From: a virus
Lineage: Duplodnaviria; Heunggongvirae; Uroviricota; Caudoviricetes
Virus record (IMG/VR): IMGVR_UViG_2617270956_000008
Span: 1-48,241 of that record
Direction: 5' to 3' (one strand)
Length of the DNA stretch: 48,241 nt
Shown here: positions 17,484 through 18,092 of the stretch, piece after piece
How positions within the stretch are numbered: position 1 is the first letter of the stretch
Layout of the letters: each line of letters opens with the position of its first letter
Program-made: the position numbers and the translations under genes
Notes under the pieces: generated by a model
What the model was told of the DNA's origin: nothing
Database searches by the model: none
Seen by the model: the letters and a program-made list of their open reading frames with translations, nothing else

Positions 17484-17496
17484 GGCGTCACCTCAA

Positions 17497-17527
17497 ATAA
17501 AAACCGCGTGTAAACGCGGTTTTTTAT
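17497..17527. terminator. bidirectional rho-independent terminator flanking the secreted-protein moron
   Basis: AAAAACCGCGTGTAAACGCGGTTTTTTATT: 6-bp GC stem with A-run upstream and T-run downstream. Confidence 0.6.
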
Positions 17528-17539
17528 TAGGTAATAAAA

Positions 17540-18028
17540 TTAAAGATCATAATCAACATTATGAGTATCTATTCTACATGATGAATAAGTAATTCCGCTT
17601 TCACCACTAATATTTACGCCAGCCTTTACCTTCCCTGATTTCGTAACATCAACAAAGAATTGCCCTCTTGGCATTTTAAATGCAAAAGAGAAACCAATAA
17701 TTTCCGAGTCAAAGTTATTTTCATCCTCACTAATTGGTACAATAAAAGCCAATGGTGCAGATTGTGAGTTATTTTCAAAATCAAAAACACCAATACCTTT
17801 ATTAAACTCGTAGGATGCTTTTTTTATTAAAAGAGTTCCACTTGCCGACTTTGCTGGGCATATTACAGACAGTCTATTTATTCCACCTACATCTAGATCT
17901 ATATTCTTATCTGCTGAAGTTTTAACGTTATCTATAAAGTATGTAGCAAGCTGCTTTTCCGTTACTGGCTTCGCAAAGGAGTTTAATGGCAGTCCTGCAG
18001 CCAACAACAATATAAACATTTTCTTCAT
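17540..18028 (-). CDS. secreted protein of unknown function (moron) with N-terminal signal peptide, 162 aa
   Basis: Internal ATG (M12) with AGGAGA SD; signal peptide MKKMFILLLAAGLPLNSFA; AT-rich; inserted between the tape measure and gpN-like genes; has its own terminator. Confidence 0.6.
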   Translation of the reverse strand: MKKMFILLLAAGLPLNSFAKPVTEKQLATYFIDNVKTSADKNIDLDVGGINRLSVICPAKSASGTLLIKKASYEFNKGIGVFDFENNSQSAPLAFIVPISEDENNFDSEIIGFSFAFKMPRGQFFVDVTKSGKVKAGVNISGESGITYSSCRIDTHNVDYDL

Positions 18029-18092
18029 ATTCTCTCCTACATTCAGCACAAACTTTACCACTCAATAACCCTACTTGATTAAAGTAGGGTTA

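What the first reader, a model, noticed from the sequence alone, without database searches (positions are those of the whole stretch)
17484..18092. Secreted-protein moron with its own terminator inserted inside the tail operon
An AT-rich gene encoding a 162-aa protein with a clear signal peptide interrupts the otherwise tightly coupled Mu-like tail gene array, between the tape measure and gpN-like genes. It is followed by a strong bidirectional terminator and preceded by a 9-bp-stem hairpin, the classic moron layout. A periplasmic or surface protein here could mediate superinfection exclusion or host fitness.
Basis: partly seen in the sequence, partly recalled or inferred. Interest (0 to 1): 0.55.

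Follow-up and report, generated by a model that had tools for sequence, protein, structure and literature searches.

The report
Secreted-protein cargo gene in prophage tail operon
An optional, AT-rich gene for an exported protein of unknown function sits in a swap-in/swap-out slot between two tail genes of an SfV/SfIV-type E. coli prophage; it is a fairly ordinary phage "moron", probably acting at the cell envelope.

Summary
Window 17484-18092 is exactly the gap between the tape-measure stop codon and the gpN-like (DNA-circulation, baseplate hub) start codon. It holds one 162-aa ORF (17540-18028, minus strand) with a Sec-type signal peptide. GC is 0.34 against 0.52-0.58 in the flanks. A strong bidirectional terminator follows the ORF and a 13-bp hairpin precedes it.

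Phage SfIV has 96-97% identical flanks and an empty site, and about 100 of roughly 1,090 E. coli genomes with a related gpN carry the gene. The junction is a variable cargo slot: at least six unrelated AT-rich genes, most envelope-targeted, occupy it in related prophages. One is annotated Sie-like.

- The terminator belongs to the slot; it is also present in empty SfV-type sites.
- No convincing promoter of the gene's own was found.
- The upstream hairpin is not conserved.

The family (PHROG 5586, no Pfam) is small, enterobacterial and fast-evolving. Its predicted fold is a generic 8-stranded beta-barrel with two conserved cysteines.

Function is unknown. Periplasmic superinfection exclusion is the best guess (about 0.35). 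Verdict: a new member of a known kind, of moderate to low interest.

The parts
17540..18028 (-). Cargo (moron-type) CDS of 162 aa plus stop codon. Member of PHROG 5586 (unknown function). Predicted exported 8-stranded beta-barrel protein.
   Evidence: ORF list and sequence. PHROG 5586 at E = 2e-82 over the full length. No Pfam, NCBIfam, PADLOC or PDB sequence hit. AF2 model with an 11-sequence alignment has pLDDT 86.4. RefSeq calls the same CDS.
17972..18028 (-). Codons 1-19: Sec type I signal peptide MKKMFILLLAAGLPLNSFA, with predicted cleavage before KP.
   Evidence: Read from the sequence. The equivalent N-termini of all full-length homologues keep the signal-peptide character without sequence conservation. 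SignalP was not run.
18033..18038 (-). Shine-Dalgarno AGGAGA, 4 nt before the ATG.
   Evidence: Sequence.
17495..17529 (-). Intrinsic, bidirectional terminator. Arms at 17499-17509 and 17514-17524, U-run UUUUUAUUU, immediately upstream of the gpN ribosome-binding site GAGGTG.
   Evidence: Intact in 19 of 20 closely related loci. Structurally equivalent terminators with different sequences occur in all other lineages and in empty SfV-type sites.
18064..18094 (-). 13-bp perfect hairpin overlapping the tape-measure stop codon, with no U-tract. Not conserved and probably not essential.
   Evidence: Intact in only 6 of 20 close loci, and one locus has a rearrangement breakpoint in its loop.
17436..18102 (.). 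Segment that differs from phage SfIV, where 91 bp stand in its place. It includes the last 3 codons of the tape-measure gene and the first 16 codons of gpN.
   Evidence: blastn breakpoints at 17435 and 18103. No flanking direct repeats or target-site duplication.
18093..19994 (-). Tail tape measure gene, the upstream border of the slot.
   Evidence: PF10145 at E = 2e-42; phrog_28.
16110..17483 (-). gpN-like DNA-circulation / baseplate hub gene, the downstream border of the slot.
   Evidence: PF07157 at E = 2.5e-34; phrog_184.
33851..34429 (-). Q-like late antiterminator of the same prophage. It explains how a terminator can be tolerated inside the late (tail) operon.
   Evidence: phrog_753 at E = 2e-66. 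SfIV-type phages are described as lambdoid with Q-dependent late expression (PMC3851460).

Best explanation
This is an accessory cargo gene (a moron in the broad sense). It occupies a recombinationally variable slot between the tape-measure and baseplate-hub (gpN-like) genes of an SfV/SfIV-type prophage, which has lambdoid regulation and a Mu-like contractile tail.

Shown.
- The gene is optional.
- Its base composition is foreign.
- It is one of at least six unrelated genes that alternate at this junction.
- It is followed by an intrinsic terminator that is a conserved feature of the slot.

Inferred.
- The protein is exported by Sec and cleaved after Ala19. It folds in the periplasm into a soluble 8-stranded up-and-down beta-barrel preceded by one helix, probably closed by a Cys57-Cys151 disulfide.
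- The gene has the same orientation as the tape-measure gene, with no terminator in between, so it is transcribed with the Q-antiterminated late operon. Q-modified polymerase reads through the terminator into the baseplate genes.
- Any transcript started without Q stops at the terminator, so baseplate genes stay silent. This includes transcripts from a weak own promoter in the lysogen, for example the TGgTAAAGT extended -10 that ends 23 nt before the ATG.

Most likely function (about 0.35): a periplasmic superinfection-exclusion factor. It would interfere with envelope penetration or DNA delivery by the tail tip of incoming phages. This is functionally analogous to HK97 gp15 and, from my own knowledge, to P1 Sim and T4 Sp.

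The anatomical part of this statement is about 0.9 likely. The functional part is a guess by position, cellular localisation and evolutionary rate.
For: Optional gene.
- SfIV has an empty site with 96-97% identical flanks.
- The gene is present in 101 E. coli genomes, against about 1,091 that carry a related gpN.

Variable slot. 76 IMG/VR loci near this gpN were classified:
- 8 carry this family.
- 14 carry a 164-aa protein (170-aa ORF from its first start codon) with a signal-peptide-like N-terminus (phrog_8976).
- 13 carry a 176-aa protein with a hydrophobic, TM-like N-terminus (phrog_5485).
- 4 carry an antisense, N-terminally hydrophobic (TM-like) tRNA_anti-like protein. It matches phrog_8545, annotated 'superinfection exclusion Sie-like', and PF12869.
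- 37 are empty.
- E. coli genomes add a bPH_1 protein and a 225-aa lipoprotein.
- All cargo genes have GC 0.32-0.42 against about 0.52-0.56 in the flanks.

Contexts of family members.
- All homologues with a readable context and 32% identity or more sit at the tape-measure|gpN junction. This covers the 42 IMG/VR loci, one of them with a rearranged upstream flank, and also the E. coli and Shigella chromosomal loci, L136, L137 and the Pantoea remnant.
- Two distant members (23-26% identity in alignment A2) sit in other accessory regions next to toxin-antitoxin pairs: after the tail fibre genes in L134, and in a locus with an IncFII-type replication gene and phage-like genes in L135.

Fast evolution.
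- Protein identity is 34-49% where the sheath is 70-87%, the tape measure 50-74% and gpN 53-72%.
- dN/dS among close alleles is 0.2-1.2 for most pairs (up to 2.8) against 0.25 for gpN and 0.06 for the tape measure, on very small counts.

Real protein.
- All 10 distinct close alleles are intact.
- Cys57 (nearly invariant) and Cys151 (invariant) are conserved, as are the SASG and GQFFV motifs.
- AF2 pLDDT is 86.

Terminator and antitermination.

Precedent: HK97 gp15, a moron next to the tape-measure gene in the tail operon, is an exclusion protein (PMC3594210; PMC10883804). Tab is another late-operon moron with a defence role (PMC10884400).
Against: - There is no experimental or annotation link between this family and phage exclusion. 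PADLOC, Pfam and NCBIfam give nothing.
- No promoter was demonstrated, so expression in the lysogen is unproven.
- In the L037/L050 lineage the gene is only 16 nt from the tape-measure stop, which looks like plain late-operon expression.
- The cargo variant does not track the tape-measure allele strictly: SfIV has the same tape measure without the gene.
- The 76-locus census is the set nearest to this gpN, not an unbiased sample.
Confidence: 0.55

Rival explanations
1. Host-fitness or virulence factor that is not anti-phage. The protein would be a periplasmic small-barrel binder or inhibitor expressed in the lysogen. Examples are a lipocalin-like ligand binder or a peptidoglycan-hydrolase/lysozyme inhibitor working like PliC, MliC or Brucella PhiA, which would help E. 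coli or Shigella in the gut.
For: - Most of the listed carrier genomes are from human or animal isolates.
- Morons often encode such factors (PMC3594210).
Against: - There is no Pfam MliC hit.
- A profile search of PDB sequences finds no such family.
Confidence: 0.2
2. Lytic-cycle accessory protein. It would be made only late, with the tail genes, and exported to the periplasm of the dying cell. There it could block superinfection or lysis from without during virion production, protect progeny from being wasted on debris as T5 Llp does, or tune lysis timing.
For: - The gene has the same orientation as the late operon, with no terminator upstream and no convincing own promoter.
- In one lineage the gene starts 16 nt after the tape-measure stop.
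- A Q antiterminator is present.
Against: - Near-identical phages do without the gene.
- One alternative occupant of the slot is antisense to the operon and so must have its own promoter.
- Distant family members sit in typical lysogeny-expressed accessory regions beside toxin-antitoxin pairs.
- The AT-rich composition and the terminator fit the moron pattern.
Confidence: 0.15
3. Tail structural or assembly component that the first reader mistook for cargo.
For: It holds a constant position inside the tail module in several diverged lineages.
Against: - A cleavable Sec signal peptide is conserved across the family, whereas tails assemble in the cytoplasm.
- The gene is absent from SfIV, SfV, SfI and SfII, which are phages isolated and characterised as such (PMC3851460), and from 37 of 76 related loci.
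- Unrelated genes replace it in the same slot.
- Distant members occur outside tail modules.
Confidence: 0.03
4. A decaying or non-functional ORF carried along by hitch-hiking.
For: dN/dS among close alleles is up to about 1, on 2-5 synonymous and 4-11 non-synonymous changes. Truncated variants exist in assemblies. One genome has an IS1 insertion in the region (H35).
Against: - All 10 distinct close alleles keep the full 489-nt frame.
- Homologues at 23-49% identity keep their length, signal peptide, two cysteines and motifs.
- The co-variation in 11 sequences is enough for a confident AF2 model, pLDDT 86 against 47 without the alignment.
Confidence: 0.03

Closest known systems
HK97 gp15 moron (Juhala et al. 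2000; Cumby et al. 2012; summarised in PMC3594210)
   Same: It is an extra gene inside the tail operon of a lambdoid (Q-regulated) temperate coliphage, directly adjacent to the tape-measure gene. It has deviating base composition and is envelope-targeted. Its proposed or shown role is blocking genome entry of incoming phages.
   Different: - gp15 is a small inner-membrane protein related to YebO. This protein is a 143-aa (mature) soluble periplasmic beta-barrel with a cleavable signal peptide.
- gp15 lies upstream of the tape-measure gene in a siphovirus tail module. This gene lies downstream of it in a Mu-like myovirus tail module.
- gp15's promoter, its expression in lysogens and its exclusion phenotype are documented. 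None of these is shown here.
PliC/MliC/PhiA periplasmic peptidoglycan-hydrolase inhibitors (e.g. PDB 3oe3, 2f09, 7dpy)
   Different: There is no sequence or profile relationship. This protein has an extra N-terminal helix. The fold similarity is no better than to avidins or lipocalin-like barrels.
P1 Sim and T4 Sp/Imm (own knowledge, not checked here)
   Same: These are phage-encoded proteins that act after adsorption in the periplasm or at the inner membrane to stop DNA entry. Sim is a signal-peptide-processed periplasmic protein. Sp is thought to inhibit the tail lysozyme.
   Different: No sequence similarity was tested or is known. Their genomic locations differ. T4 is virulent.
Alternative occupants of the same slot, especially the antisense tRNA_anti-like protein (phrog_8545 'superinfection exclusion Sie-like', PF12869)
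   Same: Same tape-measure|gpN junction, same AT-rich composition, and envelope-targeted (N-terminal TM-like anchor).
   Different: It is unrelated in sequence, lies on the opposite strand and has a different fold (OB). Its Sie label is a database annotation and was not verified here.

Membership tests
Moron (Juhala/Hendrix definition, as summarised in PMC3594210) | Extra DNA that is absent from otherwise closely related phage genomes. | tested here: met
   SfIV has 96-97% identical flanks and a 24-bp gap in place of 609 bp. 37 of 76 related loci are empty.
Moron (Juhala/Hendrix definition) | Base composition differs from the surrounding genes. | tested here: met
   GC is 0.34 against 0.52-0.58. 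The same contrast holds in every lineage.
Moron (Juhala/Hendrix definition) | A transcription terminator lies downstream. | tested here: met
   An 11-bp stem followed by UUUUUAUUU; the stretch holding it has z = -5.2. However, the terminator also exists in empty SfV-type sites, so it belongs to the slot.
Moron (Juhala/Hendrix definition) | An own promoter lies upstream. | tested here: inconclusive
   No sigma-70 match of 9/12 or better upstream in the window or in four other lineages. There is only a weak extended -10 candidate, TGgTAAAGT. The scans are consensus-based.
Moron (Juhala/Hendrix definition) | Expressed from the repressed prophage. | not testable with these tools
   This needs RNA-seq, a reporter or proteomics of uninduced lysogens.
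PHROG 5586 (phage protein family, function unknown) | Full-length match to the family HMM. | tested here: met
   E = 2.1e-82, residues 1-161 matched to profile positions 1-161 of 161. The distant member in L134 also matches.
Sec (SPase I) secreted protein | An N-terminal signal peptide with a positive n-region, a hydrophobic h-region of 10-15 residues, small residues at -3 and -1, and no lipobox. | tested here: met
   MKK / MFILLLAAGLPL / NSFA|K, read from the sequence. The property is conserved in all full-length homologues. No SignalP score is available. The 48% variant P0007 has a lipobox-like LTSC.
MliC/PliC lysozyme inhibitor family (Pfam MliC) | Sequence or profile match to the family. 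| tested here: not met
   No Pfam hit at E <= 0.1. hhalign of the profile against E. coli MliC (sequence from memory) gives probability 2%, matching the signal peptide only. The PDB profile search lists no MliC or PliC chain.
MliC/PliC lysozyme inhibitor family | 8-stranded antiparallel beta-barrel fold. | tested here: inconclusive
Tail structural protein of Mu-like or SfV-like tails | Present in all functional tail modules of the type, with a cytoplasmic product. | tested here: not met
   It is absent from SfIV, SfV, SfI and SfII and from many prophages. The product carries an export signal.
Known anti-phage defence systems (PADLOC-DB 2.0) | Match to any defence-protein HMM. | tested here: not met
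   0 families at E <= 1.

The most novel reading that the evidence does not exclude
The tape-measure|gpN junction of SfV-type myovirus tail modules would be a dedicated cargo slot, bounded by a terminator, that carries a rotating set of at least six unrelated, mostly envelope-targeted exclusion genes. PHROG 5586 would be a new class of soluble periplasmic exclusion protein. It would be a disulfide-locked beta-barrel that binds or inhibits a tail-tip component (tape measure, hub or a tail-associated peptidoglycan hydrolase) of incoming contractile-tailed phages. Its fast evolution would reflect an arms race.
Probability: 0.25. Interest if true: 0.6.

Novelty: new member of a known kind. Interest (0 to 1): 0.35.

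Why it matters
- SfV/SfIV-type prophages are very common: about a fifth of complete E. coli genomes carry a related gpN.
- A defined slot that exchanges small envelope proteins is a compact place to look for new superinfection-exclusion or envelope-modifying functions. It would also help explain why therapeutic or typing phages plate differently on otherwise similar strains.
- This particular family has no Pfam model, no solved structure and no literature. A phenotype would annotate several hundred 'hypothetical proteins'.
- The general phenomenon, morons in late operons, is well known, so the conceptual gain is modest.

Tried and rejected
- Pfam, NCBIfam, PADLOC and PDB sequence searches with the single protein gave nothing. 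A PDB search with the family profile gave only chance hits at E > 0.2.
- An exhaustive phmmer search over 1.84 billion representatives found only 17 hits at E <= 1e-3, and about five of the weakest are probably spurious: three hits in long multi-domain proteins and two very short fragments.
- A profile search of 5.8 billion proteins found no annotated relative.
- AF2 on the single sequence was useless, with pLDDT 47. AF2 with the alignment worked.
- Foldseek against PDB and BFVD found nothing below E = 1e-3. The afdb50 library was unavailable.
- The MliC/PliC homology idea came from an SASG and Y...KG motif resemblance recalled from memory. hhalign rejected it at the sequence level.
- A search for target-site duplications or flanking direct repeats found none, so this is not a transposon-like insertion.
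- Rfam gave only sub-threshold terminator-like leader hits.
- Literature searches for the protein accessions and the PHROG id found 0 papers.
Searches with P0023 and P0018 in viral contigs found nothing.

Full report
**1. What is at the coordinates**

Window 17484-18092 is exactly the non-coding-looking gap between two minus-strand tail genes.
- One is the tape measure gene (18093..19994; PF10145, E = 2e-42).
- The other is a gpN-like DNA-circulation / baseplate hub gene (16110..17483; PF07157, E = 2.5e-34).

The gap holds one ORF on the same strand, 17540..18061 from GTG. The sensible start is the ATG at 18026-18028 behind AGGAGA, which gives 162 aa. RefSeq annotates the same 489-nt CDS as hypothetical protein WP_001566765.1.

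The N-terminus MKKMFILLLAAGLPLNSFA|KP is a textbook SPase-I signal peptide with no lipobox cysteine. This was read from the sequence, since no SignalP tool was available.

GC falls to 0.34-0.36 across the gene, against 0.52-0.58 on both sides.

Downstream there is an 11-bp perfect stem (17499-17509 / 17514-17524).
- An A-run precedes it and UUUUUAUUU follows it.
- The 62-nt stretch that holds it folds with z = -5.2.
- It is followed at once by the gpN Shine-Dalgarno sequence.

Upstream there is a 13-bp perfect stem (18064-18076 / 18082-18094) overlapping the tape-measure stop codon, in a 56-nt stretch that folds with z = -5.7 and no U-tract.

The only correction is the stem length: 13 bp, not 9.

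**2. Which phage**

The region matches SfV/SfIV-type temperate phages of Shigella and E. coli. Escherichia phage vB_EcoM-720R4 is collinear at 98% and carries the gene. SfIV matches both flanks but not the middle. SfV, SfI and SfII match only gpN.

The window encodes a Q-like antiterminator (33851-34429; phrog_753, E = 2e-66), followed by holin, endolysin and Rz. The published description of SfIV is a lambdoid phage with Q-dependent late genes (PMC3851460).

**3. The gene is optional**

Against SfIV, identity (96-97%) breaks at 17435 and resumes at 18103. SfIV has 91 bp where the window has 667 bp, and its tape-measure-to-gpN gap is 24 bp. The breakpoints lie inside the coding ends of both neighbours, and there are no flanking direct repeats. 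This indicates exchange by recombination in the flanks, not transposition.

Among 5,426 complete E. coli genomes, 101 carry the gene at 95% identity or more. About 1,091 carry a related gpN.

**4. The junction is a cargo slot**

I fetched 80 IMG/VR loci encoding the closest gpN relatives and classified the tape-measure-to-gpN gap in the 76 where both genes were found.

| Slot content | Loci |
|---|---|
| This family | 8 |
| 164-aa protein (170-aa ORF from its first start codon) with signal-peptide-like N-terminus (phrog_8976) | 14 |
| 176-aa protein with hydrophobic, TM-like N-terminus (phrog_5485) | 13 |
| 148-160-aa N-terminally hydrophobic (TM-like) protein on the opposite strand | 4 |
| Empty, SfIV-type | 22 |
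| Empty, SfV-type | 15 |

- The opposite-strand protein matches PF12869 (tRNA_anti-like) and phrog_8545, which is annotated 'superinfection exclusion Sie-like'.
- Spot checks of E. coli chromosomes add a bPH_1 domain protein and a 225-aa lipoprotein (phrog_1353). They also confirm empty sites in O157:H7 and S88.
- One metagenomic contig has a HIRAN-domain gene plus a family member in the slot.
- Every occupant is AT-rich, at 0.32-0.42.
- This sample is the set nearest to the query gpN, so the proportions are indicative only.

**5. The terminator belongs to the slot**

In all lineages carrying this family, in the sense-strand alternative cargos, and in the empty SfV-type site, a GC-rich stem plus U-run lies immediately before the gpN ribosome-binding site. 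The sequence differs but the position is the same. The SfIV-type empty site has none.

In the 20 loci closest to the window, the terminator is intact in 19. The upstream 13-bp hairpin is intact in only 6. It is degraded by four substitutions in 13 loci, and one locus has a rearrangement breakpoint in its loop. I therefore treat the upstream hairpin as incidental.

With Q present, late transcription should read through the terminator. This follows from established lambdoid biology and was not tested here. Without Q, any transcript entering or starting in the slot stops before the baseplate genes.

**6. Promoter**

The consensus scan finds no sigma-70 site of 9/12 or better upstream of the gene in the window, or in four other lineages. 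A laxer scan gives only a weak extended -10 (TGgTAAAGT) ending 23 nt before the ATG.

In the L037/L050 lineage the gene starts 16 nt after the tape-measure stop. Independent expression in the lysogen is thus unproven. Co-transcription with the late operon is the only expression that the anatomy guarantees.

**7. The protein family**

It is small.
- 10 clusters in 5.8 billion proteins.
- 17 representatives at E <= 1e-3 in an exhaustive scan of 1.84 billion.
- No annotated relative even with a profile.

Members are 148-176 aa. All complete ones have signal peptides. Cys57 and Cys151 (window numbering) and the motifs CPxxSASG and GQFFV are conserved.

All relatives with a readable context and 32% identity or more sit in the tape-measure|gpN slot. 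This includes a decayed remnant in a Pantoea genome that keeps fragments of both the gene and gpN.

Two distant members (23-26% identity in alignment A2) sit elsewhere.
- One is after the tail-fibre genes, beside a HigBA-like pair.
- One is next to a PemK/MazE pair, in a locus with an IncFII-type replication gene and phage-like genes.

So the family is mobile cargo, not a tail part.

It diverges faster than its neighbours: 34-49% identity against 50-87% for tape measure, gpN, gpP, tube and sheath. Among close alleles dN/dS is 0.2-1.2 for most pairs (up to 2.8), against 0.25 for gpN and 0.06 for the tape measure. This rests on only 2-5 synonymous changes, so it is suggestive only.

**8. Structure**

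- AF2 without an alignment failed, with pLDDT 47.
- With 11 sequences it gave pLDDT 86.4 and pTM 0.79: a helix at residues 24-41 followed by eight strands.
- Foldseek against PDB and BFVD gives nothing below E = 1e-3.
- A recalled motif resemblance to MliC did not survive profile comparison.
- The first and last strands carry the two conserved cysteines, which is compatible with a barrel-closing disulfide in the periplasm.

**9. Mechanism**

Shown: an optional, compositionally foreign, intact, conserved-in-family gene for a signal-peptide protein, in a variable slot closed by a terminator, inside a Q-controlled late operon.

Inferred: export by Sec, a soluble periplasmic barrel, and transcription with the late genes.

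Guessed (about 0.35): prophage-expressed superinfection exclusion acting on tail-tip penetration or DNA delivery. The grounds are as follows.
- Most slot occupants are envelope-targeted.
- One occupant carries a Sie-like annotation.
- The family evolves fast.
- Late-operon morons with such roles are known: HK97 gp15 next to the tape-measure gene, and Tab (PMC3594210, PMC10883804, PMC10884400).

Rivals are a host-fitness binder or inhibitor (0.2), a purely late lytic-cycle periplasmic function (0.15), a structural protein (0.03) and a dead ORF (0.03).

**10. Verdict**

The finding is real and the moron reading is essentially right, with three corrections: no promoter is shown, the terminator belongs to the slot, and the upstream hairpin is dispensable.

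It is a new, uncharacterised member of a well-known kind. The added value from this work is the recognition of the tape-measure|gpN junction as a multi-cargo slot. Interest is moderate to low (0.35).

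Noticed in passing
L069:3952-4446, L073:3939-4469, L114:3938-4384 (-), L053:3603-3980 (-), L054:3593-4270 (-), L137:2387-2974: The same tape-measure|gpN junction in related prophages carries at least six unrelated AT-rich genes. They are phrog_8976 (signal-peptide-like N-terminus), phrog_5485 (N-terminal TM-like), an antisense tRNA_anti-like protein annotated 'Sie-like' (phrog_8545), a bPH_1 protein, a 225-aa lipoprotein (phrog_1353) and a HIRAN-domain protein.
   Followed up: partly
L051:3540-3599 and L003:2955-2999 (SfV-type empty sites): Empty SfV-type junctions still contain a canonical intrinsic terminator (CCCAC-TCCG-GTGGG followed by a T-run) just before the gpN ribosome-binding site. 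SfIV-type empty junctions have none.
   Followed up: partly
window 32320-33711 (-): An AT-rich (GC about 0.40) 463-aa P-loop/STAND-like ATPase (AAA_16, nSTAND1; phrog_6841) lies between the Q antiterminator and the holin. This is the classic lambdoid moron position, so it is a possible defence NTPase. PADLOC gave only a marginal hit.
   Followed up: partly
window 5759-6163 (+): An H-NS family protein (PF22470 and PF00816) is encoded in the AT-rich block (about 1-9600) next to the tail-fibre end of the prophage, together with DUF4756, DUF6404 and DUF6387 proteins. A xenogeneic-silencer paralogue sits beside AT-rich cargo.
   Followed up: no
window 30230-30838 (-): Another low-GC (about 0.43) gene, encoding a DUF2441 protein (phrog_9842), lies between the Rz spanin gene and the head/terminase region. 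It may be a further moron.
   Followed up: no
L010:5926-6000: In one IMG/VR prophage the sequence upstream of the cargo gene changes exactly in the loop of the 13-bp hairpin, and no tape-measure gene is found upstream. This is a rearrangement breakpoint at the hairpin.
   Followed up: no
hit H35 (NZ_CM168021.1, E. coli PEC122): An IS1 element interrupts the cargo-gene region in one genome. The match is split into two pieces spanning 1,381 bp.
   Followed up: no
P0007 (L005:4126-4608): The 48%-identical allele found in Shigella and E. coli has a lipobox-like LTSC in its signal peptide. That variant may be lipid-anchored rather than soluble.
   Followed up: no
L008:6250-6595 (Candidatus Pantoea haifensis): A decayed prophage remnant keeps only fragments of the cargo gene and of the gpN N-terminus, embedded among chromosomal genes (CopC/CopD, GH43).
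   Followed up: partly
window 10062-12437 (-): The tail fibre/spike gene is compositionally chimeric. GC is about 0.53 at the 5' end and drops to 0.44-0.47 towards the distal end, as expected for a swapped receptor-binding part.
   Followed up: no
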